Virus record (IMG/VR): IMGVR_UViG_2663763227_000012
Origin: a virus
Taxonomy: Duplodnaviria > Heunggongvirae > Uroviricota > Caudoviricetes
DNA length: 20,074 nt
Strand: one strand, 5' to 3'
Shown here: positions 4,938-18,118 of the stretch, piece by piece
Layout of the letters: each line of letters starts with the position of its first letter
How positions within the stretch are numbered: the stretch's first letter is position 1
Position numbers and translations under genes: made by a program
Notes under the pieces: model-generated
Database searches by the model: none
Told to the model about the DNA's origin: nothing
What the model saw: the letters and a program-made list of their open reading frames with translations, nothing else

Positions 4938-4995
4938 AAAAAGGGCGGCAGAGCAGTCACGGAGTAAAACTGATACCGCCAAACGTCACCAGAAA
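4938..4995 (-). ncRNA. dicF: DicF small regulatory RNA (ftsZ-targeting sRNA)
   Basis: Reverse complement of 4938-4995 reads TTTCTGGTGACGTTTGGCGGTATCAGTTTTACTCCGTGACTGCTCTGCCGCCCTTTTT, the DicF sequence with its terminal GC stem and U-tail. Lies between ydfC and dicB as in Qin. Confidence 0.85.
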
Positions 4996-6035: not shown

Positions 6036-6443
6036 TTATCTTTTATTTGTCCGCTGACGGGCTTTTAGTAATTCTTCAAAGAGTTTATTGAAGTTTTTTA
6101 CTCGAGCTCGCATTTCGGCGAGCTGGGTATCCTGTTCTGATTCTGGCAGTGCATTAAACAGCTCAAGGAGCTCTAGTTCTTTGGGGGATAAGGCAACTGG
6201 CTTCTCAACAGGTGGTGTTGGTTGCTTGTCTTCATCGCCAAATAGAATCCATGTTGGTGAGCATTGCAATACTTTGCTGAGGGCAAAAAGGTTCTTCCCT
6301 GTAGGTTCACTATCACCCCGTTCCCATTGTGATACAGACACATGGGAGATTTTCAGGGCTTTAGCAAGAGACCTTTGGGTGTGTTTGAGGTTTTTCCGAC
6401 GATACCTGATGCGTTCGCCGATAGTTAAATTTTTTGTTTCCAT
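6036..6443 (-). CDS. dicA: Prophage repressor DicA (HTH_XRE, c2/cI-like)
   Basis: 135-aa ORF (METKNLTIGERIRYRRKNLKHTQRSLAKALKISHVSVSQWERGDSEPT...) with an N-terminal HTH, divergent from dicC. Confidence 0.9.
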   Translation of the reverse strand: METKNLTIGERIRYRRKNLKHTQRSLAKALKISHVSVSQWERGDSEPTGKNLFALSKVLQCSPTWILFGDEDKQPTPPVEKPVALSPKELELLELFNALPESEQDTQLAEMRARVKNFNKLFEELLKARQRTNKR

Positions 6444-6757: not shown

Positions 6758-7262
6758 ACAGGCTCGTGAGGCTCTGGATGCCTGGATATGTCGACCAGGA
6801 ATGACACAGGAGCAGGCGACGATATTAATCACTGAAGCATTCTGGGCTTTGAAAGAGCGCCCGAACATCGATGTTCAGCGTGTCACATATGAAGGTGGCG
6901 CGATTGATCAGCGAGCGCTTGGCGTTAATCGAGTGAAGATATTTGAACGCTGGAAGGCTATCGACACCAGGGATAAGCGTGAAAAGTTCACGGCGCTAGT
7001 GCCTGCAATTATGGAGGCTATCCGGATTAATGATTTCAGGTTGTATCGTGAAATTACTGACGGAAAAAGCATCACGTGCATGATCGCCGGGTTAAACAAA
7101 GAATATGGCGATGTGGTGGAGTCCGGACTGCTTTTTGCTGATCCTGCCGTAGTGGATCGTGAAACTGACGAACTTATAGAAAAAGCAATTGCTTTCAAAC
7201 TTGCGTATCGACAGCAATACCAACAAAAAGCTGGATGGAATTATGAGCCTTCTTTTTGCTGA
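6741..7262 (+). CDS. YdaT-like early protein (CII-position regulator family)
   Basis: 173-aa ORF overlapping the dicC 3' end. The central segment (ERWKAIDTRDKREKFTALVPAIMEAI) resembles the conserved core of Rac YdaT as recalled. Confidence 0.6.
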   Translation: MKITPEQAREALDAWICRPGMTQEQATILITEAFWALKERPNIDVQRVTYEGGAIDQRALGVNRVKIFERWKAIDTRDKREKFTALVPAIMEAIRINDFRLYREITDGKSITCMIAGLNKEYGDVVESGLLFADPAVVDRETDELIEKAIAFKLAYRQQYQQKAGWNYEPSFC

Positions 7263-8208
7263 ACGCCCACTGGTTATAAACACGCAGCTGGCAATGAAAA
7301 TTGGCTTAAACGAAGCCATTGTTTTGCAACAACTGCACTACTGGTTGAGAGATACCAACTCCGGCATGGAATGTGATGGTGTTCGCTGGATTTATAACAC
7401 AACGGAACAATGGCTGGAACAGTTCCCATTCTGGTCAGAGTCAACGTTAAAGCGCGCGTTTGCAAGTCTGAAAACGCTGGGGCTTTTGCGTTGTGAAAAG
7501 CTCAATAAATCAAAGCGCGATATGACCAATTTCTACACGATCAACTATGGGAGCGAGCTTTTAGATGGTGGCAAATTGAGCGAATCCATCGGTTCAAAAT
7601 GCGCCGCTCCATCAGGTCAAAATGACACGATGGAAGAGGTCAAAATGAAACGCTCCATTGGTTCAAAACGACCCAATGTCATCGGGTCAAAATGGCCTGA
7701 TGATCTTACAGAGAATACAACAGAGATTACTACAGAGAATAAAAACACTTTTCGTCCGGAAGCTTCGCAACCGGACCCGCAGACGACTGAACAGGATTTT
7801 TTAACCCGGAACTCCGACGCGGTTGTGTTTAGTGCGAAAAAACGCCAGTGGGGTAGCAGGGAGGATTTGGCGTGTGCGCAGTGGATCTGGGGGCGGATCG
7901 TGGGTCTCTACGAACAGGCAGCCAGTGATGATGGCGAGATCATGCGACCAAAAGAGCCTAACTGGACTGCCTGGGCCAATGACGTGCGCACAATGCGGAT
8001 GCTGGATGGCAGAAGCCACAGACAAATTTGCGAAATGTTTGGTCGGGTTCAGCGAGATCCATTCTGGGTAAAAAACATCATGAGCCCGTCAAAGCTCCGC
8101 GAAAAATGGGACGAACTGGTCATCCGCCTGGGACGTTCACCTGTACAGCGTTGTGTTAATCATATTTCTGAACCGGATACAGAAATTCCGCCTGGTTTCA
8201 GAGGATAA
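7243..8208 (+). CDS. Phage replication initiator / replisome-organizer-like protein (O-like)
   Basis: ORF 7189..8208; I prefer the ATG at 7243 (MSLLFAERPLVINTQLAMKIGLNEAIVLQQLHYWLRD...), which gives a winged-helix-like N-terminal domain. Internal iteron array and position after the cro/cII-like genes support an initiator role. Confidence 0.6.
   Translation: MSLLFAERPLVINTQLAMKIGLNEAIVLQQLHYWLRDTNSGMECDGVRWIYNTTEQWLEQFPFWSESTLKRAFASLKTLGLLRCEKLNKSKRDMTNFYTINYGSELLDGGKLSESIGSKCAAPSGQNDTMEEVKMKRSIGSKRPNVIGSKWPDDLTENTTEITTENKNTFRPEASQPDPQTTEQDFLTRNSDAVVFSAKKRQWGSREDLACAQWIWGRIVGLYEQAASDDGEIMRPKEPNWTAWANDVRTMRMLDGRSHRQICEMFGRVQRDPFWVKNIMSPSKLREKWDELVIRLGRSPVQRCVNHISEPDTEIPPGFRG
7588..7694 (+). 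repeat. Five direct iteron-like repeats (consensus ~ATCGGGTCAAAATG) at ~23-bp spacing, candidate ori
   Basis: Copies at 7588-7601, 7611-7624, 7636-7647, 7657-7670 and 7681-7694 inside the initiator gene (seen as repeated IGSK in the protein). Confidence 0.55.
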
Positions 8209-8248
8209 GTGTTGATTTCAGGTCATGAGGTAATTTTAAGGGGGACTT

Positions 8249-8671
8249 GTGGCAAAAGTTTTTACACAAGAAGAGCGGGAAAAAATTAAATGGCAGGTGG
8301 TGGAACTCGTGCGCCAGAGCGGCCGTGAGACGTTACGGCAACTGGAAGCTAAAACAGGTGCGACTAGATATCTGATGAGCGTTCTTGCCAGAGAGCTGGT
8401 AGCCAGTGGCGATGTATACAACTCCGGCTACGGGTTATTCCCCTCTGAACAGGCGCGTAAGGACTGGCAAAACGCCCGCAAAAAACTCTCGAGGGCAAAG
8501 GTGAAGAAACCTGCTGTGGTTGATCCGGACCTTATCTGGTCATCACCTGACGGAGAAATACGTCGCTACGACAGTCGCCTAAACATAATCTGTCGCGAGT
8601 GCCGGAAGAGCGAAGTTATGCAGCGCATACTGGCTTTCTATCAGGGTAATTTTCAGGACGTGGCGCAGTGA
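8249..8671 (+). CDS. Hypothetical prophage protein, possible HTH
   Basis: 140-aa ORF with GTG start at 8249 preceded by GGGGG. Segment ETLRQLEAKTGATRYLMSVLARELV looks HTH-like. Stop overlaps the next gene's GTG start (GTGA at 8668-8671). Confidence 0.5.
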   Translation: MAKVFTQEEREKIKWQVVELVRQSGRETLRQLEAKTGATRYLMSVLARELVASGDVYNSGYGLFPSEQARKDWQNARKKLSRAKVKKPAVVDPDLIWSSPDGEIRRYDSRLNIICRECRKSEVMQRILAFYQGNFQDVAQ

Positions 8672-9024
8672 GTGCACCGGCAACCATTCTTGATATGTGC
8701 TGTGGCAGCCGCATGTTCTGGTTCGATAAGTCTGACGAACGGGCGATATTCAGCGATATCAGAAAAGAAGGATACACATTACGCAATGGGAGACGCTTGA
8801 TTATCAGCCCTGACATTATCGCAGATTTTCGTGCATTATCATTTGCAGACGCATCTTTTTCGATGGTTGTATTAGACCCTCCGCATCTTGAGAGTGTTGG
8901 TGATAACGCCTGGATGGGAAAGAAATATGGACGGCTGAATAAAGATGCCTGGCGTGATGATTCGCGACAGAGATTTAAAGAAGCCTTTCGGGTGTTGAGG
9001 CCGCACGGCGTTCTGATTTTTTAA
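8668..9024 (+). CDS. N6-adenine DNA methyltransferase-like protein, short and probably truncated
   Basis: 118 aa with SAM motif I-like DMCCGS and motif IV DPPH (VVLDPPHL), plus a RVLRPHGVLIF strand typical of class I MTases. Too short for a complete MTase fold; the frame stays open 30 codons past the TAA at 9022-9024. Confidence 0.55.
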   Translation: MSAPATILDMCCGSRMFWFDKSDERAIFSDIRKEGYTLRNGRRLIISPDIIADFRALSFADASFSMVVLDPPHLESVGDNAWMGKKYGRLNKDAWRDDSRQRFKEAFRVLRPHGVLIF

Positions 9025-10137
9025 TGGAATGAAACGCAAATACCGGTAAGCCAGATTCTGGCACTGACAGACAGAAAACCTGTTATCTGTCAACGAACAG
9101 GGAAAAAACGATAAAACCCACTGGATTATTTTTATGAAAGAGGCATCCAGTGAGTAGATTCGTAAGGCTACAGATACGTATATCTGAATAATTAAATTCA
9201 GTTCTGTAAATAAAATTTAATCCTTAACCGGATGGATTTCTGCACCCTCAGAACATCAGGAGGCCGCCCGAAAGGGCGGTAGTGAAATGCGAAAGTTCAA
9301 AATTATTATTGAAACGGGAATAGCTGGTGGAGATTTTGAGGATGTATTCGAAGTGGACGATGACGCAACACCTGAGGAAATTCATGACGGAGCATAAGAA
9401 ATTTTCTTTAACTACTGCAATTACTCATACCACGAAATAAAAGACGATGAGGAAGAACAAAGTGGCTGATTTTTGTTCAGCTAAATATAACATCAGTTTT
9501 GAAGAGCGGGATGAACTATTAATGGACTATGGTGAGTTACGCGGTGGAAGTGCTGCTGATGTCGAATCCTAGCGTGATGACTATGAAGCGGGAAAAACTC
9601 CGGTCGAAGCATATTGTGATGAGTGGGGCGATGAATGAGCGAGATTAATTATCAGGAAGGGCATGAAACGGCGGGGCAAGCAAAACCAGTGGCATGGCGA
9701 TATCGCTACGTGAAAAAAGGCGTTACGGACTTTCAGGGGAAGTAGTGGTCTGGTGACTGGAAATATGTACCGAAAAAAGAGGATTGTAACGACAGGCCGA
9801 ACTATCAAATTCAGGCCTTATTCACTGCCTCACCAGTCCCAGTTACATCAGAAGAACTGGTTAAAGCTGTGCACTTTTATGAACAACTAAAACGCGAAAA
9901 TCCACCAACATCCGGCAACTAGATTAATGGATTAACTATGTCGGTTAAACGACCAGCCAACTGAAAAAGCGGAAACCTGATTACAGGTTGCCAGATAAGG
10001 CAATGAGCTACCTGGCGCGGAACGGACTGATAAGTATGGGGAATGTTTTACGATGAACCTTTAGACTAAAGAGTTTGTAACGCTATGTAAGTGATTTTTT
10101 CTGGTTTAGATATTTATATGTCCGGCCAAATTGAGGT
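9025..10137. other. AT-rich decayed accessory segment with several gene-like frames each broken by an in-frame stop
   Basis: 9288-9470 (MRKFKIIIETGIAGGDFEDVFEVDDDATPEEIHDGA-TAA-EIFFNYCNYSYHEIKDDEEEQSG), 9490-9637 (in-frame TAG at 9569-9571) and 9635-9921 (MSEINYQEGHETAGQAKPVAWRYRYVKKGVTDFQGK-TAG-WSGDWKYVPKKEDC...). No ORF over 60 aa on the plus strand. Confidence 0.4.
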
Positions 10138-10176
10138 GTGTTTAAATGTAATTGCACATTGATTGTAGGAGGAATA

Positions 10177-10356
10177 ATGAAAAACGCATTGCAGTTTTTG
10201 TTTGTTGCGTTCTGGTTGTTCGCATCATGTATGCCCATCATCTTCACAGCAAGGTATATGGAAAAAGTTGATGTTTTGATATTAATATTTGGATATATAA
10301 ATGCCCTTTTTTTAGGGGTGTTCATGGCGGTCATGTGCATTGAATACTGGCGGTAA
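10177..10356 (+). CDS. Small hydrophobic (predicted two-TM) membrane protein
   Basis: 59 aa from ATG 10177 (MKNALQFLFVAFWLFASCMPIIFTARYMEKVDVLILIFGYINALFLGVFMAVMCIEYWR) with canonical AGGAGG 5 nt upstream. Lies in an AT-rich island. Confidence 0.45.
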   Translation: MKNALQFLFVAFWLFASCMPIIFTARYMEKVDVLILIFGYINALFLGVFMAVMCIEYWR

Positions 10357-10690
10357 ATACAGCGAACTCCATTGGTTTAGTTGGATATTTACTGTGCTGG
10401 ACAAAAACGGTTTGCGGGGAAATCTTAGTTAAGTAGAATGACTGCGGGTGCTTGAGGCTATCTGCCTCGGGCATGGACACCAACGGCAGATAGAGAAAAG
10501 CCCCAGTTAACATTACGCGTCCTGCAAGACGCTTAACATTAATCTGAGGCCAATTTCATGCTAGACACATGTAGGTTAGCCTCTTACGTGCCGAAAGGCA
10601 CGGAGAAGCAGGCTATTGTTAACACCAAGCTGTAATGTCCCCTTTGAACCATTCTAAAATGTCCCCAGACAATTCTCTGGGGGATTTTTC

Positions 10691-12004
10691 ATGATCAAAG
10701 AGACTGTTACGATGAGTCATAAGGAACTCCACCGACTTCAGATTATTCAGGAACAAGCTGCGGCACGCATTGGCATTTCTATTCGGCAGGTTAAACGTCT
10801 GGTGCAACGGTATAGAAATGAAGGGCCTTCTGGTCTGGTTTCCCACCGACGTGGAAAGCGTCCTAATAATTCCTTTTCTACTGAATTCAGAGCAACAGTA
10901 ATTTCACTCCTCAAAGGCCGTTACGCTGATTTTGGACCTACGTTTGCGTGCGAAAAATTGCGCGAGATACACGGTTTATCTTTATCCGTTGAAACTCTCA
11001 GAAAGTGGATGATAGAAGAGGGGTTATGGCGTGAACGCCGTCGTAAAATTGCCCGTATATATCAACGCCGCATGCGACGACCATCTTACGGTGAACTGAT
11101 CCAGATTGATGGCTCACCTCATGACTGGTTTGAAAATCGAGGCCCCAGATGTACACTGATCGTTTTCATTGATGATGCCACCAGTGCGTTGATGGCGTTG
11201 CGTTTTGTGCCTGCTGAAACAACCCGGGCTTACATGGAAACCCTCCGGGGTTACCTTAATGATCATGGCGTACCGCTCGCTCTCTACTCTGATAGACACA
11301 GTATATTCAGGGTAAATAACCCAGAGCGGGAAGGTGAGCTGACCCAGTTCACTCGTGCGATAAAGACACTGGGCATCGAGCCAATCCATGCCAACAGCCC
11401 GCAGGCAAAAGGGCGGGTAGAGCGCGCCAATCAGACACTACAGGACAGGCTGGTCAAAGAAATGCGGCTTCAGAATATCAGTGATATTGAAACAGCAAAT
11501 GCATGGTTGCCGACCTTTATTGAAGCCTATAACAACCGGTTCGCTACGTCGCCTCGTACTACTGATAATGCTCATCTTGATGTGCACCATTCTGAAGAGG
11601 AACTGGGTTATATCTTCAGCCTACAGGCGAAGCGCGTTCTGTCTAAAAATCTCACTTTCCAGTACAAAAGCAGTGCGTTTCAGGTACGCAGTGAGGGCCG
11701 GGGATATCGACTTAGGCATTCGGTTGTTACTGTATGCGAGAACTTTGACGGTGAAATTAACGTTCTGTATGACGGGAAAGCGCTGGGCTGGGAAAAGTAT
11801 GTTGATGGCCCGGAGCCTATACCACTGGATGATGAAAAGAGTGTCCATGAACGAGTGGATAATGCCCGTATTGATTTACGCTCAAAATACTATGTTAAAC
11901 CTAAAGCTGACCATCCCTGGCTTACGCGCCGAACGCAAAGTCATCAGCAAGTTAAGCCCCCGAAGTTACCTAAAAAGAAGCCTGATCCCGATAAAAAAGA
12001 TTGA
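10691..12004 (+). CDS. DDE transposase/integrase-core (rve) protein with N-terminal HTH, IS481/ISNCY-like
   Basis: 437-aa ORF: N-terminal HTH (IGISIRQVKRLVQRY), then an rve-type catalytic core (IQIDGSPHDW...TLIVFIDDATS...GRVERANQTLQD) and a basic C-terminal tail. Element boundaries not resolved. Confidence 0.8.
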   Translation: MIKETVTMSHKELHRLQIIQEQAAARIGISIRQVKRLVQRYRNEGPSGLVSHRRGKRPNNSFSTEFRATVISLLKGRYADFGPTFACEKLREIHGLSLSVETLRKWMIEEGLWRERRRKIARIYQRRMRRPSYGELIQIDGSPHDWFENRGPRCTLIVFIDDATSALMALRFVPAETTRAYMETLRGYLNDHGVPLALYSDRHSIFRVNNPEREGELTQFTRAIKTLGIEPIHANSPQAKGRVERANQTLQDRLVKEMRLQNISDIETANAWLPTFIEAYNNRFATSPRTTDNAHLDVHHSEEELGYIFSLQAKRVLSKNLTFQYKSSAFQVRSEGRGYRLRHSVVTVCENFDGEINVLYDGKALGWEKYVDGPEPIPLDDEKSVHERVDNARIDLRSKYYVKPKADHPWLTRRTQSHQQVKPPKLPKKKPDPDKKD

Positions 12005-12399
12005 AACCAAGATCGATTCGGTTGAGTGCATATCCATTCATAGGGTAGATTCTTAAGTCGCGTTTCTGGTGTTCATTTTCGGGTGGTTTGTTACTTGTTT
12101 TACCGGGGATATGCCAGAAACGCGCTGAGTCAGTCTGGGCGGTGCGCGTAATGAGGCGTTATGGTAAATAGCCTATGCTAATGTCCGCTAAGAGCAAGAA
12201 GCGGAAGTTGGCAGTTTTGTGGACTGTCCCCACAAAAGTGACTACAGAAATAGTTGCAATTCATAATTGATCATGGGTTGTCAGTTAAACTCGTGGCGAT
12301 TTAAATAGACTAATTGGGAGTGCGTCCATTACTTATATCTTGTAATGTTAACTATCAGAAATGATACAAAGATAATATGTCTTTAAAGAAAAGGCTGAT

Positions 12400-12427
12400 G
12401 GCGAAAAGTGGCCCGATGAGGGCCACA
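12400..12427 (-). terminator. Intrinsic terminator downstream of flxA
   Basis: Hairpin GTGGCCC-gatgag-GGCCAC (12408-12426) followed on the minus strand by a T-run. Confidence 0.5.
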
Positions 12428-12440
12428 ATACGGCTGTCAC

Positions 12441-12773
12441 TTAGACGTAAATATCAATGGTGCCAGCGGTATTTGTATCGTCTTTTTTCTCTTCTTTTTT
12501 ATCAGGCTGAACTGTCGCGTCTTCATTCTTTTTCTCTGCCTGCTGCCTTAACAACTGCTCCAGTTGAGCCCAGAGGCTTTCAATTTGCTTTTGTACCAAT
12601 GCAGCCATTTCTTTTTTCTGCTGTGTCGTCATCCCCTCTTCCGATGAGATTTTCCCAAGCTTTTCAGTCAGCACCTGAATTTGTCTTGTGATTTTGGCTA
12701 TTTCTGATGTTCCTTCCGGGGCGGAGTTGTTTGAAATAACGGTTGAGGTATTTCCCTGAATTGTGACAGACAT
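12441..12773 (-). CDS. flxA: FlxA (sigma-28-dependent Qin prophage protein)
   Basis: 110-aa ORF (MSVTIQGNTSTVISNNSAPEGTSEIAKITRQIQVLTEKLGKISSEEGMTTQQKKEMAALVQKQIESLWAQLEQLL...) matching FlxA as recalled. Confidence 0.85.
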   Translation of the reverse strand: MSVTIQGNTSTVISNNSAPEGTSEIAKITRQIQVLTEKLGKISSEEGMTTQQKKEMAALVQKQIESLWAQLEQLLRQQAEKKNEDATVQPDKKEEKKDDTNTAGTIDIYV

Positions 12774-12796
12774 AGATTTCTCCTTTTAAAAAAACA

Positions 12797-12824
12797 CTAT
12801 CGGCATGCACAAAAAAATCTTTAA
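12797..12824 (-). promoter_or_regulatory. Sigma-28 (FliA) class-3 promoter for flxA
   Basis: Minus strand reads TTAAAG-N15-GCCGATA (-35 at 12819-12824, -10 at 12798-12804), close to the FliA consensus TAAA-N15-GCCGATAA, about 25 nt upstream of the flxA start. Confidence 0.6.
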
Positions 12825-12975
12825 TCGTATTTCTTGTGTCATTAATTGTTTGATGTTCAGATTGTTTTCCTCGCGGGCTGGCGCGCCTCAGAAAGTAAAG
12901 CTTGTTGACAGGGGTAAACGTTCGGCAATAATTTTCTGCCGCATGCGGGTGTTGCATAAAACGTGTTACGTTCCT

Positions 12976-13281
12976 TTATCGACAGGTCAGGTCACCGCTC
13001 ACCCGCCGACGAGAAAGCAACACTGACATGCTAAAGCAAAAAATAGATGAATAAGTTGAGTTGTGCATATGTAGCCTGACCGTCACAAAGTATATGGTGT
13101 CTGTACCAGTAAGATGATGGCCGGACTCTTTAAAAACGAGCTGACCTGCACAATACAGGATGGACTTAGCAATGGCTGCTCCTGGCACAAAGCGGACAGT
13201 GATCACCGTTCTTACGACTACTTTCTGACTTCCTTCGTGACTTGCCCTAAGCATGTTGTAGTGCGATACTTGTAATGACAT
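12976..13281 (-). CDS. ydfV: YdfV-like hypothetical protein
   Basis: 101-aa ORF between flxA and relB, same position and length as Qin ydfV. Unusual composition, so it may not be a real protein. Confidence 0.45.
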   Translation of the reverse strand: MSLQVSHYNMLRASHEGSQKVVVRTVITVRFVPGAAIAKSILYCAGQLVFKESGHHLTGTDTIYFVTVRLHMHNSTYSSIFCFSMSVLLSRRRVSGDLTCR

Positions 13282-13294
13282 TTGTAATTACAAG
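13269..13294 (+). promoter_or_regulatory. relO-like operator in the relBE promoter
   Basis: CTTGTAAT-gacat-TTGTAATTACAAG: inverted and direct TTGTAAT hexads immediately upstream of the relB start. Confidence 0.6.
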
Positions 13295-13305
13295 AGGTGT
13301 AAGAC

Positions 13306-13545
13306 ATGGGTAGCATTAACCTGCGTATTGACGATGAACTTAAAGCGCGTTCTTACGCCGCGCTTGAAAAAATGGGTGTAACTCCTTCTGAAGCGCTTCG
13401 TCTCATGCTCGAGTATATCGCTGACAATGAACGCTTGCCGTTCAAACAGACACTCCTGAGTGATGAAGATGCTGAACTTGTGGAGGTAGTGAAAGAACGG
13501 CTTCGTAATCCTAAGCCAGTACGTGTGACGCTGGATGAACTCTGA
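13306..13545 (+). CDS. relB: RelB antitoxin
   Basis: 79-aa ORF (MGSINLRIDDELKARSYAALEKMGVTPSEALRLMLEYIADNERLPFKQTLLSDEDAELVEVVKERLRNPKPVRVTLDEL), near-identical to E. coli RelB as recalled. Confidence 0.9.
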   Translation: MGSINLRIDDELKARSYAALEKMGVTPSEALRLMLEYIADNERLPFKQTLLSDEDAELVEVVKERLRNPKPVRVTLDEL

Positions 13546-13832
13546 TGGCGTATTTTCTGGATTTTGACGAGCGGGCACTAAAGGAATGGCGAAAGCTGGG
13601 CTCGACGGTACGTGAACAGTTGAAAAAGAAGCTGGTTGAAGTACTTGAGTCACCCCGGATTGAAGCAAACAAGCTCCGTGGTATGCCTGATTGTTACAAG
13701 ATTAAGCTCCGGTCTTCAGGCTATCGCCTTGTATACCAGGTTATAGACGAGAAAGTTGTCGTTTTCGTGATTTCTGTTGGGAAAAGAGAACGCTCGGAAG
13801 TATATAGCGAGGCGGTCAAACGCATTCTCTGA
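13545..13832 (+). CDS. relE: RelE toxin (ribosome-dependent mRNA interferase)
   Basis: 95-aa ORF (MAYFLDFDERALKEWRKLGSTVREQLKKKLVEVLESPRIEANKLRGMPDCYKIKLRSSGYRLVYQVIDEKVVVFVISVGKRERSEVYSEAVKRIL). Start overlaps the relB stop (ATGA). Confidence 0.9.
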   Translation: MAYFLDFDERALKEWRKLGSTVREQLKKKLVEVLESPRIEANKLRGMPDCYKIKLRSSGYRLVYQVIDEKVVVFVISVGKRERSEVYSEAVKRIL

Positions 13833-13903
13833 ACCAAAGCATGACATCTCTGTTTCGCACCGAAGGTGACACTTCTGCTTTGCGTTGACAGGAGAAGCAG
13901 GCT

Positions 13904-14059
13904 ATGAAGCAGCAAAAGGCGATGTTAATCGCCCTGATCGTCATCTGTTTAACCGTCATAGTGACGGCACTGGTAACGAGGAAAGACCTCTGCGAGGTAC
14001 GAATCCGAACCGGCCAGACGGAGGTCGCTGTCTTCACAGCTTACGAACCTGAGGAGTAA
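13904..14059 (+). CDS. hokD: Hok-family membrane toxin HokD (RelF)
   Basis: Hand-translated 51-aa ORF (MKQQKAMLIALIVICLTVIVTALVTRKDLCEVRIRTGQTEVAVFTAYEPEE), below the track cutoff. GGAGAAG RBS; third gene after relBE. Confidence 0.85.
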   Translation: MKQQKAMLIALIVICLTVIVTALVTRKDLCEVRIRTGQTEVAVFTAYEPEE

Positions 14060-14127
14060 GAGACCCGGCGGGGGAGAAATCCCTCGCCACCTCTGATGTG
14101 GCAGGCATCCTCAACGCACCCGCACTT

Positions 14128-14158
14128 AACCCGCTTCGGCGGGTTTTTGTTTTTATTT
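14128..14158 (+). terminator. Rho-independent terminator after hokD
   Basis: CCCGC-ttcg-GCGGG stem (14130-14143) followed by TTTTTGTTTTTATTTT. Confidence 0.7.
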
Positions 14159-14275
14159 TCAACGCGTTTGAAGTTCTGGACGGTGCCGGAATAGAATCAA
14201 AAATACTTAAGTAGCGCGCAGGGATAAGAGGGATGGTCCCTTAAAGGGGAGAGCTAATTATCCGGAAGGATTCTG

Positions 14276-14527
14276 ATGATGAACATCGAAGAACTGCGTA
14301 AAATTTTTTGTGAAGATGGCCTCTATGCTGTGTGCGTTGAAAATGGAAATCTTGTTAGTCATTACCGCATTATGTGTTTGCGAAAGAATGGGGCTGCGTT
14401 AATTAATTTTGTGGATGCTCGGGTCACGGACGGATTTATCTTGCGCGAAGGTGAGTTTGTCACTTCATTACAGGCATTGAAAGAGATCGGAATAAAAGCT
14501 GGCTTTTCTGCTTTTTCAGGAGAATAA
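14276..14527 (+). CDS. rem: Rem-like small prophage protein
   Basis: 83-aa ORF (MMNIEELRKIFCEDGLYAVCVENGNLVSHYRIMCLRKNGAALINFVDARVTDGF...), matching Qin Rem in length and position after hokD. Confidence 0.6.
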   Translation: MMNIEELRKIFCEDGLYAVCVENGNLVSHYRIMCLRKNGAALINFVDARVTDGFILREGEFVTSLQALKEIGIKAGFSAFSGE

Positions 14528-14593
14528 ACTCATCTACAATCTTGCGCGGGGCTGAACTCCCGCTGAGTAACACCGTGCCACCGGAGAAAACCG

Positions 14594-14872
14594 ATGGCAC
14601 GCAACGCAAAATATTACAATTCTGATAATTCGCCCGTTCTTGCCTGCACGCACGGGCGGTATTCTCACGCATTCAAGTCTGAATGGTTCCAGCACCCTCC
14701 ATGCACTGCAGAACAGGCCGAATGGCTGATTCATTCTTACCGCAGGCGCGGGTTCGAGGTTAAGAAAGCTCTCAGTCTCGACTATCGGCACTGGATAATC
14801 TCTGTCAGGCTGCCTTATTCCGAACGCCCACCACGTGCGTCCCGCACTTTCCAGCAACGGATCTGGAGGTAA
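14594..14872 (+). CDS. Hypothetical protein (Cys/His-containing)
   Basis: 92-aa ORF with GGAG RBS before ATG 14594. Its stop (14870-14872) lies 1 nt before the GTG start of the DUF968-like gene. Confidence 0.5.
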   Translation: MARNAKYYNSDNSPVLACTHGRYSHAFKSEWFQHPPCTAEQAEWLIHSYRRRGFEVKKALSLDYRHWIISVRLPYSERPPRASRTFQQRIWR

Positions 14873-14873
14873 C

Positions 14874-15875
14874 GTGCGGGTATTACTTAGACCTGTTCTG
14901 GTGCCTGAGCTTGGGCTGGTGGTCCTTAAGCCGGGCCGTGAATCCATACAGATATTTCATAATCCTCGAGTGCTGGTGGAACCGGAACCAAAAAGCATGC
15001 GTAATCTGCCATCCGGAGTCGTTCCTGCCGTTCGCCAGCCGCTGGCGGAAGACAAAACATTGCTGCCGTTTTTTAGTAACGAACGGGTGATTCGTGCTGC
15101 TGGCGGCGTTGGCGCATTGTCCGACTGGCTATTACGTCATGTTACATCCTGCCAGTGGCCTAATGGCGATTACCATCACACTGAAACAGTCATTCACCGT
15201 TATGGTACCGGCGCAATGGTGTTGTGCTGGCACTGCGACAACCAACTGCGTGACCAGACATCGGAATCACTGGAGCTGCTTGCTCAACAAAATCTGACAG
15301 CATGGGTGATTGACGTCATCCGTCACGCAATAAGCGGTACGCAGGAGCGGGAATTATCTTTGGCTGAATTATCCTGGTGGGCGGTCTGCAATCAGGTGGT
15401 GGATGCACTACCTGAGGCTGTATCGCGTCGTTCGCTGGGATTACCAGCGGAAAAAATCTGCTCGGTGTACCGCGAAAGCGACATCGTACCGGGAGAGCAG
15501 ACCGCCACCAGCATATTGAAACAACGCACAAAAAATCTTGCACCGTTGCCTTACGCCCACCAGCAACAAAAATCACCACAGGAAAAGACGGTGGTAAGCA
15601 TCACCGTTGATCCAGAGTCTCCGGAATCTTTCATGAAGCTGCCTAAACGTCGCCGCTGGGTTAAGGAGAAATACACACGTTGGGTTAAGACACAGCCGTG
15701 TGCTTGCTGCGGTATGCCAGCCGACGATCCGCATCATCTGATTGGTCACGGGCAGGGCGGAATGGGAACAAAAGCACATGATCTCTTTGTGTTGCCTTTG
15801 TGCAGAAAGCATCACAACGAGCTGCATACGGATACAGTGGCATTTGAAGATAAGTATGGCTCCCAACTGGACTGA
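14874..15875 (+). CDS. ydfU: DUF968/YdfU-like protein with C-terminal HNH-like Cys/His motif
   Basis: ORF 14835..15875 in the track; I prefer the GTG at 14874 because GGAGG sits 4 nt upstream. C-terminus CACCGMPADDPHHLIGHGQGGMGTKAHDLFVLPLCRKHHNELH is HNH-nuclease-like. Confidence 0.65.
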   Translation: MRVLLRPVLVPELGLVVLKPGRESIQIFHNPRVLVEPEPKSMRNLPSGVVPAVRQPLAEDKTLLPFFSNERVIRAAGGVGALSDWLLRHVTSCQWPNGDYHHTETVIHRYGTGAMVLCWHCDNQLRDQTSESLELLAQQNLTAWVIDVIRHAISGTQERELSLAELSWWAVCNQVVDALPEAVSRRSLGLPAEKICSVYRESDIVPGEQTATSILKQRTKNLAPLPYAHQQQKSPQEKTVVSITVDPESPESFMKLPKRRRWVKEKYTRWVKTQPCACCGMPADDPHHLIGHGQGGMGTKAHDLFVLPLCRKHHNELHTDTVAFEDKYGSQLD

Positions 15876-17322: not shown

Positions 17323-17622
17323 AAAAATTCCTTAATACTTATAACTTGGCGCACTATACACACGTTCCTGAAGAAAGCTATAGTTTTTTGATGGGGTTGA
17401 AGATGGCTGGATGTCTAAAATAAACATTGCTTCATATGTTCAACTATGCGTTAATGATTGCGTCGGTTTGAAGAACAGACGATATACGAAGTAGTTTACT
17501 AAAGCAGTTCTCATTTCAGGTGTTATTCACTTATTCCTTCTTTGAGTCTCTCCAATTAAGTACGAAGTCGTTTCTGTTATGCAAACCATTTATGCCGAAA
17601 GGCTCAAGTTAAGGAATGTAGA

Positions 17623-17838
17623 ATGTCAAATAAAATGACTGGTTTAGTAAAATGGTTTAACGCTGATAAAGGTTTCGGCTTTATTTCTCCTGTTGATGGT
17701 AGTAAAGATGTGTTTGTGCATTTTTCTGCGATTCAGAATGATAATTATCGAACCTTATTTGAAGGTCAAAAGGTTACCTTCTCTATAGAGAGTGGTGCTA
17801 AAGGTCCTGCAGCAGCAAATGTCATCATTACTGATTAA
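17623..17838 (+). CDS. cspB: Cold-shock protein CspB
   Basis: 71-aa ORF ([71 protein letters not shown]) with RNP1/RNP2 motifs and a ~300-nt AT-rich upstream region typical of csp genes. Confidence 0.9.
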
Positions 17839-18118
17839 AATTCATCGCTCGTCTGTATACGATAACGAAGAAGGCTGATGCCTGAGTAGAGATACGGACA
17901 GAGTAGTGAATATTGGATCTCTTTAATAAAAAGTAAGGAGGTCCAATACATGAAACAATGGCTAGCATATTTGGCAAAATCTTAATCAGGAAAAGTATGC
18001 TAACCATTGTGGTGAAGTGCAGGTTTGCTGCATGAATAGTTTTACAGCAGAAGCTAACTGCTGGCATGGCAAAACAAAGTGCGTAAGTGGATGACTCCCA
18101 CAAAAAGCACCACAATCT

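What the first reader, a model, noticed from the sequence alone, without database searches (positions are those of the whole stretch)
13269..14158. Three-toxin-gene cassette relB-relE-hokD with relO operator, embedded in the prophage
A type II pair (RelB/RelE) is directly followed by a type I-family Hok toxin ORF and a strong terminator. The operator hexads (TTGTAAT) are intact. I did not find an upstream mok/sok arrangement for hokD, so the Hok gene here appears to depend on relBE operon transcription. Such cassettes can stabilise the prophage or act in phage defence.
Basis: partly seen in the sequence, partly recalled or inferred. Interest (0 to 1): 0.5.

Follow-up and report, generated by a model that had tools for sequence, protein, structure and literature searches.

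The report
relBE transposon inserted into hokD locus
The relB-relE-hokD trio is the textbook E. coli relBEF operon, but this fuller copy shows how it arose: a 3.3-kb transposon carrying relBE landed on the ribosome-binding site of an intact hok/sok toxin locus, cutting hokD off from its control region, and related transposons hit hok genes on many plasmids and phages.

Summary
The genes are real and already known. relO (13270-13293), relB, relE, hokD and the hok terminator match E. coli K-12 at 99.9%. The title is wrong, because relB is an antitoxin.

The new part lies upstream. The missing hok control region (hok leader, mok start, sok gene) sits at 10446-10616, 3.27 kb upstream of hokD. Between the two lies a transposon (10617-13890):
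- It has imperfect terminal inverted repeats (TGT...ACA, 22/30) and an ISNCY/IS1202-family (ISEsa1-like) transposase.
- Its cargo is flxA and ydfV, followed by an outward-facing relBE at the right end.
- A 15-bp target duplication, GGAGAAGCAGGCTAT, flanks it. This is the hok ribosome-binding site through the AT of the start codon.

Uninterrupted "empty" sites exist in other E. coli strains and in phage 933W (hokW/mokW/sokW). The same unit sits in the pnd (hok-family) locus of IncI plasmids with its own 16-bp duplication. Variants with other cargo but the same relBE end occur across Enterobacteriaceae. Most insertions are at the same position of different hok genes.

K-12 later deleted the leader and most of the transposase, which hid this history. 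So hokD rides on relBE transcription by accident of insertion. I found no paper describing the vehicle or its hok targeting.

The parts
10411..10439 (+). Probable hok promoter of the displaced leader (TTTGCG, 17 nt, TAGAAT). Inferred by eye.
   Evidence: Sequence. It lies just upstream of the start of the Rfam hit at 10446. The consensus scan did not call it.
10446..10616 (+). Displaced 5' part of the hokD locus: hok mRNA leader (tac end, mok ribosome-binding site and start, Sok target). It ends at the 'AT' of the hok start codon.
   Evidence: Rfam RF01794 'sok' gives 104 bits (cut-off 59) over model positions 1-157. Window 10426-10616, which contains this part, is 98.4% identical to the uninterrupted locus of E. 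coli MIN14 (L003 6001-6191), where it runs straight into hokD. The same arrangement is found in phage 933W.
10496..10566 (-). sok antisense RNA gene, placed by homology to the annotated sokW of phage 933W. Its -10 (TAACCT, 10573-10578) and -35 (GTGCCT here, TTGCCT in intact loci, 10596-10601) are read by eye.
   Evidence: The annotation of AF125520 (sokW, mokW, hokW) was mapped with an offset of 10064. The promoter hexamers are inferred, and the scan did not call them.
10558..10635 (+). Truncated mok reading frame. It starts at the mokW-equivalent ATG and now runs into the transposon end.
   Evidence: ORF list. The mokW start maps to 10558.
10602..10616 (.). Left copy of the 15-bp target-site duplication, GGAGAAGCAGGCTAT.
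   Evidence: L003 holds the sequence once, at the overlap of the two alignments (6176-6191).
10617..13890 (+). Whole transposon (3274 bp): left inverted repeat (IRL), transposase, flxA, ydfV, PrelB/relO, relB, relE, right inverted repeat (IRR).
   Evidence: The empty site L003 lacks exactly this segment. The same unit sits in IncI plasmids with a different duplication. Junction table.
10617..10646 (+). Left terminal inverted repeat (TGTTAACACCAAGCTGTAATGTCCCC...).
   Evidence: The best inverted match in the whole window is at 13861-13890 (22/30; next best 18/30). The end is conserved in relatives from other genera and in the Hahella IS.
10662..10683 (+). Terminator-like hairpin with a T run, inside the left end and just before the transposase start codon.
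   Evidence: That it blocks read-through from the hok promoter is inference.
10691..12004 (+). DDE transposase, 437 aa. It is the 446-aa form minus 9 residues in the N-terminal helix-turn-helix region.
   Evidence: NCBIfam NF033594 ISNCY family, 456 bits (cut-off 250). Pfam HTH_32/HTH_29/rve_3. PGAP names it 'IS1202-like element ISEsa1 family transposase'.
12441..12773 (-). flxA, cargo specific to the E. coli version of the transposon.
   Evidence: Pfam FlxA, 53.8 bits. Other variants carry other genes here instead.
12976..13281 (-). ydfV, an ORF that straddles the boundary between cargo and the conserved right module.
   Evidence: No family hit. Only its first ~34 codons are shared with other variants.
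13178..13890 (+). Conserved right-end module of the transposon family: relBE promoter/operator, relB, relE and the right inverted repeat.
   Evidence: It is 98.5-98.9% identical in Enterobacter, Kluyvera, Pseudocitrobacter, Huaxiibacter and Superficieibacter loci whose transposase block is only ~90% identical and whose cargo differs. It is present on 784 PLSDB plasmids, 617 of them conjugative.
13270..13293 (+). relO operator (TTGTAATGACAT + TTGTAATTACAA).
   Evidence: Exact match to the published half-sites (PMC2812701).
13306..13545 (+). relB antitoxin.
13545..13832 (+). relE toxin (mRNA interferase). Its start overlaps the relB stop codon.
13861..13890 (+). Right terminal inverted repeat (...CTTCTGCTTTGCGTTGACA).
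   Evidence: The last 18 nt are identical in a 70%-identical Scandinavium element that carries a different toxin-antitoxin pair. The Hahella IS ends ...GGGTTGACA.
13891..13905 (.). Right copy of the target-site duplication. It supplies the ribosome-binding site GGAG and the 'AT' of the hokD start codon.
13904..14059 (+). hokD (relF), a type I membrane toxin ORF, intact.
   Evidence: Pfam HOK_GEF, 82.9 bits. Same protein accession as in K-12 and as in the uninterrupted MIN14 locus.
14085..14122 (+). fbi-like 3' element of the hok mRNA, complementary to the 5' (tac) end of the displaced leader.
   Evidence: Predicted duplex with 10446-10473 at -35.2 kcal/mol. This is among the 6 best of 800 control windows, two of which are the exact antisense.
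14128..14155 (+). hok terminator, which now ends the relB-relE-hokD transcript.
   Evidence: The relBEF full-length mRNA in K-12 is described in PMC3598666.

Best explanation
What is shown:
- relB-relE-hokD is a transposon-target junction, not a purpose-built cassette.
- The ancestral Qin-like prophage carried a complete hokD type I locus, as phage 933W still does (hokW/mokW/sokW). Its order was promoter, leader with tac, mok start and Sok target, sok on the opposite strand, hok, then the fbi element and terminator.
- A 3.27-kb cargo-carrying insertion sequence of the ISNCY/IS1202 family (ISEsa1-like) inserted at 10617-13890. Its order is left repeat, transposase, flxA, ydfV, PrelB/relO, relB, relE, right repeat.
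- It made staggered cuts 15 bp apart across the hok ribosome-binding site and start codon, duplicating GGAGAAGCAGGCTAT.
- The left duplicate stays attached to the orphaned leader and sok (10446-10616). The right duplicate gives hokD its ribosome-binding site.
- K-12 later deleted window 7021-11819. That removed the leader, sok, the left repeat and about 1.1 kb of the transposase. The 49-codon 'ydfW' is what remains of the transposase.

What follows for expression:
- relBE sits at the outward-facing right end with no terminator before the right repeat.
- RelB/RelE-controlled transcription therefore runs through the 58-nt transposon end into hokD and stops at the hok terminator.
- This gives the known relBEF mRNA. 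Co-transcription has been shown experimentally in K-12.

What is inferred:
- relBE is a conserved right-end module of this transposon lineage. It is most likely an addiction module that stabilises the element and its carrier replicon.
- The transposase strongly prefers the site beside the GGCAA motif (the Sok -35 box read on the other strand) at the hok ribosome-binding site.
- hok/sok loci would then act as landing pads on plasmids and prophages.
- Whether HokD is translated from the relBEF mRNA, and whether its capture is useful, is unknown.
For: 1. Split locus. Rfam places a full hok/sok leader at 10446-10617. No sok lies near hokD.
2. Empty site. In E. coli MIN14, window 10426-10616 and 13890-14979 are contiguous with a 16-bp overlap, in the same prophage context (dicB ... 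hokD, rem, DUF968) and without a transposase, flxA, ydfV or relBE. 933W and 76 other phage records show the same joined arrangement.
3. Transposon anatomy. The ends are TGT...ACA. The best inverted match of the left end anywhere in the window is exactly at the duplication border (22/30 against 18/30 for the next best). The 15-bp duplication is exact. The transposase scores 456 bits on NF033594.
4. Independent transposition.
- The same unit lies in the pnd locus of IncI plasmids with its own duplication, TGGAGGGGCTATGATG.
- The reconstituted pnd site is uninterrupted in 1798 plasmids.
- Variants in seven other genera have different cargo but the same relBE end, with 13-16-bp duplications that match each target on both sides.
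5. Family behaviour. Eight copies of a simple 1449-bp relative in Hahella end TGTTAG...GTTGACA, and each has its own 15-17-bp duplication.
6. Target preference. An unbiased scan for the exact 20-nt right end gave 159 junctions with 32 distinct flanks. Of these, 14 are at a hok ribosome-binding site/ATG, 2 are tandem second insertions into the same site, 4 are at a hok-like leader, 1 is a deletion into hokD and 11 are elsewhere.
7. tac/fbi complementarity survives between the displaced leader and the hokD 3' UTR.
8. Co-transcription of relBEF has been shown experimentally (PMC3598666). There is no terminator before 14128.
9. The K-12 deletion and the origin of ydfW follow from the coordinates.
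Against: - No transposition experiment was possible.
- The transposase in this window lacks 9 residues of the 446-aa form, so this copy may be inactive.
- The terminal repeats are imperfect (22/30).
- One viral contig (L206) has only a 6-bp repeat at its ends.
- For about ten related loci, neither a right end nor a duplication was found within the 5 kb fetched.
- ISfinder, as reported in PMC10132070, defines ISEsa1 as 1609 bp with no detectable duplication. That conflicts with the boundaries proposed here unless that entry covers only the conserved left block.
- About a third of the distinct junctions are not in hok loci, so targeting is a preference and not absolute.
- Distinct flanks are not guaranteed to be independent events.
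- The base just left of the duplication differs between occupied (C) and empty (A) hokD sites. This is unexplained.
Confidence: 0.88

Rival explanations
1. relB-relE-hokD is a native three-gene stabilisation or defence cassette in which hokD never had its own mok/sok and is meant to be expressed from the relBE promoter.
For: The genes are adjacent, co-oriented and share one terminator. They are co-transcribed in K-12. The arrangement is kept in 1159 E. coli genomes. Hok ORFs downstream of related insertions are mostly intact.
Against: The matching leader with mok start and sok lies 3.27 kb upstream. Uninterrupted versions encoding the identical HokD protein exist. The 71-nt relE-hokD spacer consists of 58 nt of transposon end plus 13 nt of duplicated target. 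The hokD 3' UTR still carries an fbi element that pairs with the displaced 5' end. The hok partner differs from insertion to insertion (hokD, pndA, hokE-like, R1-like).
Confidence: 0.05
2. relBE entered the hokD locus as a bare promoter-plus-genes module by recombination with a plasmid, as earlier work on horizontally moving toxin-antitoxin pairs proposed. The neighbouring transposase is a separate ~1.6-kb insertion sequence (ISEsa1 as defined in ISfinder).
For: Earlier authors stated that relBE integrated into the hokD ORF and came from plasmids (PMC6379469, citing Ramisetty & Santhosh 2016). ISEsa1 is listed as 1609 bp without a target duplication. The conserved transposase block ends near window 12200-12220.
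Against: The 15-bp duplication brackets the whole 3274-bp segment and not a 1.6-kb unit. No inverted match to the left end exists near 12200-12260. Empty sites lack the transposase and relBE together. In other genera the same two ends bracket the transposase, different cargo and relBE, with locus-specific duplications. The last 18 nt after relE are conserved even in a 70%-identical element with another toxin-antitoxin pair.
Confidence: 0.05
3. The recurrence at hok loci reflects one old insertion spread among hok paralogues by homologous recombination, or survivorship of insertions on successful plasmids. It does not reflect target choice by the transposase.
For: hok loci share enough sequence to recombine. 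Several duplications are similar (GGAGAAGAAGGCCAT, GGAGAAGAAGGCTAT, GGAGAAGAAGCCATG). Most copies sit on a few successful plasmid backbones such as IncHI2 and IncI.
Against: Both copies of each duplication carry that locus's own sequence, including very different ones (TGGAGGGGCTATGATG in pnd, GATATGCTGACAAA in a hokE-like gene, GATGTTAGCCATG). The leader sequences upstream differ. One insertion is in the opposite orientation at the same 15 bp (L020). Non-hok targets also have GCAA, or CAA in Hahella, just 5' of the duplication. Tandem second insertions reuse the site.
Confidence: 0.1

Closest known systems
relBEF (relB-relE-hokD) operon of the E. coli K-12 Qin prophage
   Same: The sequence is 99.9% identical over 13000-14300 and carries the same annotation. 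relO is identical. Its co-transcription has been shown experimentally.
   Different: K-12 has lost window 7021-11819. It therefore lacks the sok/mok leader, the left repeat and most of the transposase. This window still shows the whole insertion.
hokW/mokW/sokW of Stx phage 933W, and hok/sok of plasmid R1
   Same: The two halves in the window (10446-10616 and 13891-14155) together reproduce this architecture: leader, in-frame mok start, antisense sok, hok, fbi and terminator. The junction pieces are 99.2% identical to phage copies.
   Different: Here the locus is cut at the hok ribosome-binding site by 3274 bp. Sok can no longer act on a transcript that contains hokD.
IS1202 family (formerly the IS1202 group of ISNCY), including ISEsa1 and the dif-targeting ISAjo2 group (PMC10132070)
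   Same: It has a DDE transposase of this family, imperfect terminal repeats of about 25-30 bp, an unusually long target duplication like the 16-28-bp subgroup, and site preference, a trait already known in the family (ISAjo2 at pdif).
   Different: The target is the hok ribosome-binding site beside the Sok -35 box, not dif. The element carries 1-4 kb of passenger genes plus a toxin-antitoxin pair between the transposase and the right repeat. ISEsa1 itself is catalogued as 1609 bp with no duplication, which these data suggest is an incomplete delimitation.
Tn3-family transposons that carry toxin-antitoxin pairs as part of the transposition module (from my own knowledge: Lima-Mendez et al., mBio 2020; not checked here)
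   Same: A type II toxin-antitoxin pair is a conserved, fixed-position component of a transposon, while other passenger genes vary.
   Different: The transposase family and mechanism are unrelated. Here the pair reads outward across the transposon end into a captured type I toxin gene.

Membership tests
RelBE type II toxin-antitoxin system | RelB/DinJ-family antitoxin gene immediately upstream of, and overlapping, a RelE-family toxin gene | tested here: met
   RelB: Pfam 110 bits (cut-off 22.4); NCBIfam PRK11235 132.5 bits (cut-off 96). RelE: TIGR02385 54.7 bits (cut-off 27.9). The relB stop and relE start share base 13545.
RelBE type II toxin-antitoxin system | Autoregulatory operator relO with four [A/T]TGT[A/C]A hexads in two abutting 12-bp half-sites | tested here: met
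   13270-13293 equals the published TTGTAATGACAT + TTGTAATTACAA (PMC2812701). Binding was not tested.
[quoted passage not shown] | Hok/Gef-family toxin ORF | tested here: met
   PF01848, 82.9 bits (cut-off 22). Same protein accession as K-12 HokD.
[quoted passage not shown] | mok reading frame that starts upstream of hok, continues into it and drives its translation | tested here: not met
   The mok ATG (10558) is separated from hokD by the transposon, and its frame ends at 10635. No equivalent frame enters hokD from 13833-13903.
[quoted passage not shown] | Antisense sok gene overlapping the leader of the same transcript that encodes hok | tested here: not met
   No sok in 13600-14300 at E<=10. 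The only sok/leader match is at 10446-10617, on a transcript that cannot include hokD.
[quoted passage not shown] | 3' fbi element complementary to the 5' tac end, followed by a terminator | tested here: met
   14085-14122 pairs with 10446-10473 (-35.2 kcal/mol). Terminator at 14128-14145. The two partners are now on different transcripts.
IS1202-family (ISNCY) transposable element | DDE transposase of the family | tested here: met
   NF033594, 456 bits (cut-off 250) over residues 14-368. PGAP name 'IS1202-like element ISEsa1 family transposase'. Catalytic activity was not tested, and this copy lacks 9 aa.
IS1202-family (ISNCY) transposable element | Imperfect terminal inverted repeats at both ends | tested here: met
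   22/30, the best inverted match in the window, exactly at the duplication border. The ends are conserved in relatives.
IS1202-family (ISNCY) transposable element | Direct target-site duplication, with uninterrupted target sites elsewhere | tested here: met
   15 bp here. 13-16 bp in other enterobacterial copies and 15-17 bp in eight Hahella copies. Empty sites for hokD and pnd.
IS1202-family (ISNCY) transposable element | Same unit found at independent genomic sites | tested here: met
   Prophage hokD, IncI pnd, IncHI2 hok, a hokE-like gene and non-hok sites.
Known anti-phage defence systems (PADLOC) | Match of any component to a defence-system model | tested here: not met
   No hit for RelB, RelE, HokD, FlxA or YdfV at E<=0.001.

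The most novel reading that the evidence does not exclude
A lineage of IS1202-family transposons has specialised on type I hok/sok addiction loci. Its transposase recognises the Sok promoter/hok ribosome-binding region as an attachment site. The insertion disarms the resident RNA-controlled toxin system by uncoupling hok from mok and sok. It installs the transposon's own protein-based addiction module (relBE, or tacAT in one branch). It also places the captured hok toxin under RelB/RelE-controlled read-through transcription, so that Hok becomes a second effector released when relBE is de-repressed. On this reading, the paradigm 'chromosomal' relBE of E. coli K-12 is the fossil of such a takeover.
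Probability: 0.3. Interest if true: 0.8.

Novelty: new variant of a known kind. Interest (0 to 1): 0.58.

Why it matters
relBE of E. coli K-12 is one of the most studied 'chromosomal' toxin-antitoxin systems, and hokD is usually described as a truncated or rearranged hok gene. The window shows four things.
- Origin of the odd operon. The three-gene operon, and the loss of hokD's regulators, come from a single transposon insertion followed by a deletion in K-12.
- relBE as a transposon component. relBE is a conserved end-module of a mobile element found on hundreds of conjugative plasmids (IncHI2, IncI and others). This bears on the long debate over whether such systems serve the host or are selfish stabilisers.
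- Boundaries of the ISEsa1 branch. This branch of the IS1202 family is catalogued as lacking a target duplication. The data suggest it makes 15-17-bp duplications and can carry cargo, so its catalogued boundaries need revision.
- hok loci as insertion hotspots. hok/sok loci appear to be preferred insertion sites. This offers a testable case of one addiction module displacing another, and a possible tool for site-directed insertion into plasmids.

It also flags ydfW and probably ydfV as annotation artefacts of this history.

Tried and rejected
- Promoter scans. The consensus scan found no sigma-70 site for PrelB, for the hok promoter or for Sok. The promoter positions given are therefore from the literature or read by eye. 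It has no promoter-like or terminator-like site and no sok match.
- Shorter right end. I first considered a right end near 12342-12355, where a 12-nt perfect inverted match to 10505-10516 lies. That would give a ~1.7-kb IS. I rejected it because the match partner is in the hok leader and not in the IS end, no duplication flanks it, and it is not among the best matches to the left end.
- ISfinder boundary. I looked for the 1609-bp ISfinder-type right end near 12225. No convincing inverted repeat is there.
- Unresolved related loci. For ten related loci, neither a right end nor a second copy of the left-flank 12-16-mer turned up within the fetched 5 kb.
- PADLOC. No hits.
- Literature. Searches for ISEsa1, hokD with rearrangement, relBE with transposon and hok, and ISNCY with relE and hok found no description of this element. 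The key earlier paper (Ramisetty & Santhosh 2016) and Pedersen & Gerdes 1999 are not held. I know their content only through citing papers.
- Folding of 13833-14160. The prediction pairs the right repeat with the fbi element and partly covers the ribosome-binding site. I treat this as a curiosity and not as evidence about translation.
Full report
**1. The observation**

relB is at 13306-13545, relE at 13545-13832 and hokD at 13904-14059. All three score well above curated family thresholds.

The operator at 13270-13293 is letter for letter the two published relO half-sites, TTGTAATGACAT and TTGTAATTACAA (PMC2812701). The only terminator-like site in 13150-14300 is the hairpin at 14128-14145 followed by a T run.

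The stretch 13000-14300 is 99.9% identical to E. coli K-12 MG1655. It carries the annotation ydfV, relB, relE, hokD, rem. At least 80% of it is present in 1159 of 5426 complete E. coli genomes.

The surroundings are a Qin-like lambdoid prophage, with DicF RNA, dicB, the cspB leader and a Q antiterminator.

Two statements need correcting. RelB is an antitoxin, so this is not a 'three-toxin' cassette. The absence of mok/sok is true only locally.

**2. The missing half of the hok locus**

A scan of the whole window against Rfam gave one hit to the hok/sok leader family. It is RF01794 at 10446-10617 on the plus strand, scoring 104 bits against a 59-bit cut-off. It lies 3.3 kb upstream of hokD on the same strand. 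A permissive scan of 13600-14300 found no such element on either strand.

The leader ends exactly at the 'AT' of what should be the hok start codon. It is followed by TGTTAACACC... and a 437-aa transposase ORF.

In E. coli O7:H4 MIN14 the same leader (98.4% identical) runs straight into a hokD gene with the same protein accession as in K-12, followed by rem. The prophage context is the same, with no transposase, flxA, ydfV or relBE.

The alignment places window 10426-10616 on L003 6001-6191 and window 13890-14979 on L003 6176-7267. The segment 10617-13890 is therefore an insertion. The 15 bases GGAGAAGCAGGCTAT are present once in the empty site and twice in the window, at 10602-10616 and 13891-13905.

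Phage 933W has the same uninterrupted locus, annotated hokW, mokW and sokW. Transferring that annotation puts sok at 10496-10566 on the minus strand and the mok start at 10558.

The 5' end of the displaced leader is still complementary to the 3' UTR of hokD. Positions 10446-10473 pair with 14085-14122 at -35.2 kcal/mol. This is the tac/fbi pairing typical of hok mRNAs (concept in PMC9841398).

**3. The insert is a transposon**

- Its ends are TGT...ACA.
- The first 30 nt of the left end find their best inverted match in the entire window, on both strands, at 13861-13890. The match is 22/30, against 18/30 for the runner-up. It ends exactly at the border of the duplication.
- The ORF is an ISNCY-family transposase (NF033594, 456 bits against a cut-off of 250).
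- NCBI's pipeline names it 'IS1202-like element ISEsa1 family'.

The element has moved as a whole. On IncI plasmids pDEC9B-1 and pSA20064858.1 the same unit lies between trbA and excA, inside the pnd (hok-family) locus. The unit has the order transposase, flxA, ydfV, relB, relE. It is flanked there by its own duplication, TGGAGGGGCTATGATG. The reconstituted uninterrupted pnd site is present in 1798 plasmids.

A search of one genome per species for relatives of the transposase gave a consistent picture, followed by junction analysis.
- Loci came from Enterobacter, Kluyvera, Pseudocitrobacter, Leclercia, Huaxiibacter, Superficieibacter and Candidatus Pantoea, and from Klebsiella plasmid pK29.
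- The same two ends bracket a ~1.6-kb transposase block (about 90% nucleotide identity), then variable cargo, then a nearly invariant right module equal to window 13178-13890. That module is 98.5-98.9% identical in most of them.
- The right module holds PrelB/relO, relB, relE and the right repeat.
- Cargo includes an IS110 element, cytochrome b561 and a cation-diffusion transporter. Other variants carry a LysR regulator, a TauE exporter and a thioesterase.
- Each complete copy has a 13-16-bp duplication that matches its own target on both sides.
- A more distant Scandinavium element (about 70% identity) keeps the last 18 nt of the right end. It carries a TacA/GNAT toxin-antitoxin pair instead of relBE.

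Eight copies of a simple 1449-bp relative in Hahella sp. end TGTTAGCCC...GGGTTGACA. Each has its own 15-17-bp duplication. Long duplications and the GTTGACA terminus are therefore properties of this clade.

The published survey of the IS1202 family lists ISEsa1 as 1609 bp with 'no TSD detected' (PMC10132070). In the window, 1609 bp from the left end falls where the conserved transposase block stops (about 12200-12220). The catalogue entry probably describes only the left block.

**4. Target choice**

In the genome-derived set, the sequence left of the element is a hok leader ending in ...GGCAA followed by the duplicated GGAG...AT(G). This holds for at least ten different hok loci. In every locus where the right junction was recovered, the ORF after the right duplication is a Hok-family peptide. 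These include HokD, PndA, an R1-like Hok, a HokE-like peptide and others.

One insertion (L020) is in the opposite orientation but abuts the same GGAG...AT(G) target sequence. Several non-hok targets also have GCAA just 5' of the duplication, and the Hahella copies often have CAA.

To avoid selection by the transposase query, I scanned metagenome and viral contigs for the exact 20-nt right end. There were 159 usable junctions with 32 distinct flanks:
- 14 at a hok ribosome-binding site/ATG. Thirteen were confirmed with a Hok profile and one was read by eye.
- 2 where a second element sits in the same site.
- 4 at a hok-like leader followed by a 12-codon ORF. In L092 the duplication is GGAGATGTATGGGTCC.
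- 1 deletion into hokD.
- 11 elsewhere.

hok loci occupy a vanishing fraction of these replicons, so this is a strong preference, though not an absolute one. By eye, the GGCAA motif is the -35 box (TTGCC) of the sok promoter read on the other strand. This would explain its conservation in hok loci. Whether the transposase reads this motif or something larger is not known.

**5. What this means for relB-relE-hokD**

The 71-nt spacer between relE and hokD consists of 58 nt of transposon end (13833-13890) and 13 nt of duplicated target that supply the ribosome-binding site. No terminator lies in it.

Transcription from the RelB/RelE-controlled promoter therefore continues into hokD and stops at the hok terminator. 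In K-12 a single full-length relBEF mRNA is detected with relB, relE and relF probes. Deleting the relBEF promoter abolishes its induction (PMC3598666).

It is a by-product of insertion.

hokD has lost mok-coupled translation and Sok control. HokD itself is intact, and a recent preprint lists it among control sequences previously reported as toxic (bioRxiv 10.1101/2025.08.07.668861). Whether it is translated from relBEF mRNA is open. A predicted fold pairs the right repeat with the fbi element and covers part of the ribosome-binding site, but that is only a prediction.

**6. Why K-12 hid this**

Relative to the window, K-12 lacks 7021-11819. That stretch holds the phage replication genes, the hok leader with sok, the left repeat and the first ~1.1 kb of the transposase.

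The K-12 'gene' ydfW (49 codons) corresponds exactly to the last 150 nt of the transposase ORF, 11855-12004.

Of the E. coli genomes with relBE-hokD, 785 still hold at least 80% of the left part. An uninterrupted hok junction of this type, at 80% coverage or more and possibly including other similar hok loci, is found in 4036 genomes.

**7. What was known**

- The relBEF operon, relO and co-transcription are textbook knowledge.
- Ramisetty & Santhosh (2016) stated that relBE, acquired from plasmids, integrated into a ~70-codon ancestral hokD ORF (as cited in PMC6379469). That ORF is the in-frame mok-hok frame seen in 933W.
- Neither paper is held, so I could not check how far they went.
- In the searchable library I found no description of the transposon, its ends and duplication, its family-wide relBE end-module or its preference for hok sites.

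**8. Verdict**

The finding as written is a correct recognition of a known operon, with a mislabelled title and an incomplete search for sok. What lies behind it is more interesting. It is a cargo-carrying IS1202-family transposon with relBE as its fixed end-module, caught in the act of splitting a hok/sok locus, and it belongs to a widespread lineage that prefers such loci.

- The insertion history is very well supported by sequence evidence (confidence about 0.9).
- Target preference is well supported (about 0.8).
- The adaptive reading, in which one addiction module displaces another and captures its toxin, is speculative.

Noticed in passing
window 7021-11819: This 4.8-kb stretch is absent from E. 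coli K-12 MG1655. It holds phage replication-region ORFs, a 72-aa hydrophobic ORF (10138-10356), the hok leader with sok, and the 5' two-thirds of the transposase. K-12 ydfX is cut at the left deletion border.
   Followed up: partly
window 11855-12004: The K-12 'gene' ydfW (49 codons; WP_011443592.1) is simply the C-terminal end of the transposase ORF 10691-12004. In genomes that hold the intact transposase it is still annotated as a separate overlapping gene.
   Followed up: yes
window 12976-13281 (minus strand): ydfV has no family match. Only its first ~34 codons lie in the conserved relBE-promoter module. In other transposon variants the ORF continues into unrelated cargo and is 64 aa long, so it is probably not a real gene.
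   Followed up: partly
window 10691-12004: The transposase here is 437 aa. Copies in IncI plasmids, Shigella flexneri and other genera are 446 aa. The window lacks nine residues (SINRHITQE) in the N-terminal helix-turn-helix region through a 27-bp in-frame deletion.
   Followed up: partly
window 10601: The base directly 5' of the left duplication is C in all occupied hokD sites examined. It is A in the empty sites (MIN14, 933W). It falls in the first position of the presumed Sok -35 box (TTGCCT becomes GTGCCT).
   Followed up: no
window 13880-13890 with 14105-14115: In the predicted fold of 13833-14160, the transposon's right end (GCGUUGA) pairs with the fbi element (UCAACGC) of the hok 3' UTR. 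This mimics the lost tac-fbi closure and covers part of the hokD ribosome-binding site. The right end also finishes with a perfect -35 hexamer, TTGACA, facing outward.
   Followed up: no
L021 6517-6560; L157 and L165 right junctions: Two related elements sit head to tail and share one copy of the duplicated hok ribosome-binding site (...GTTGACA|GGAGAAGAAGGCTAT|TGTTAAC...). The site therefore stays usable after a first insertion.
   Followed up: partly
L037 4927-9201 (Scandinavium hiltneri): A 70%-identical member of the transposon family carries a TacA antitoxin and a GNAT toxin at its right end instead of relBE. Its target is not a hok locus, and the duplication is CATTAAGCTGCAAAT.
   Followed up: partly
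L092 3290-3306 and 10999-11060; L090, L140, L159: This is a second recurrent target. It is a hok-like leader (…GATGCCGCGAGGCAA) followed by GGAG and a 12-codon ORF (MGPPHIAIFTLT) instead of a Hok ORF. It was seen in 12 metagenome contigs with four sequence variants.
   Followed up: no
window 4943-4994 (minus strand) and 17462-17854 (plus strand): Rfam finds DicF RNA (76.7 bits) and the cspA-type thermoregulator leader upstream of the cspB-like ORF (158.8 bits). Both are as expected for a Qin-type prophage.
   Followed up: no
window 14041-14046: The Tyr47 codon of hokD sits in a UACG context (GCT TAC GAA). A recent preprint says hokC, hokD and hokE mRNAs undergo TadA A-to-I editing that recodes this tyrosine to cysteine (bioRxiv 10.1101/2025.08.07.668861).
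   Followed up: no
L089 (Escherichia phage PhiR42_1, from ECOR13): One of 50,697 deposited phage genomes carries the whole transposon in its hok locus. The element can therefore travel in a phage genome that was deposited as complete.
   Followed up: partly
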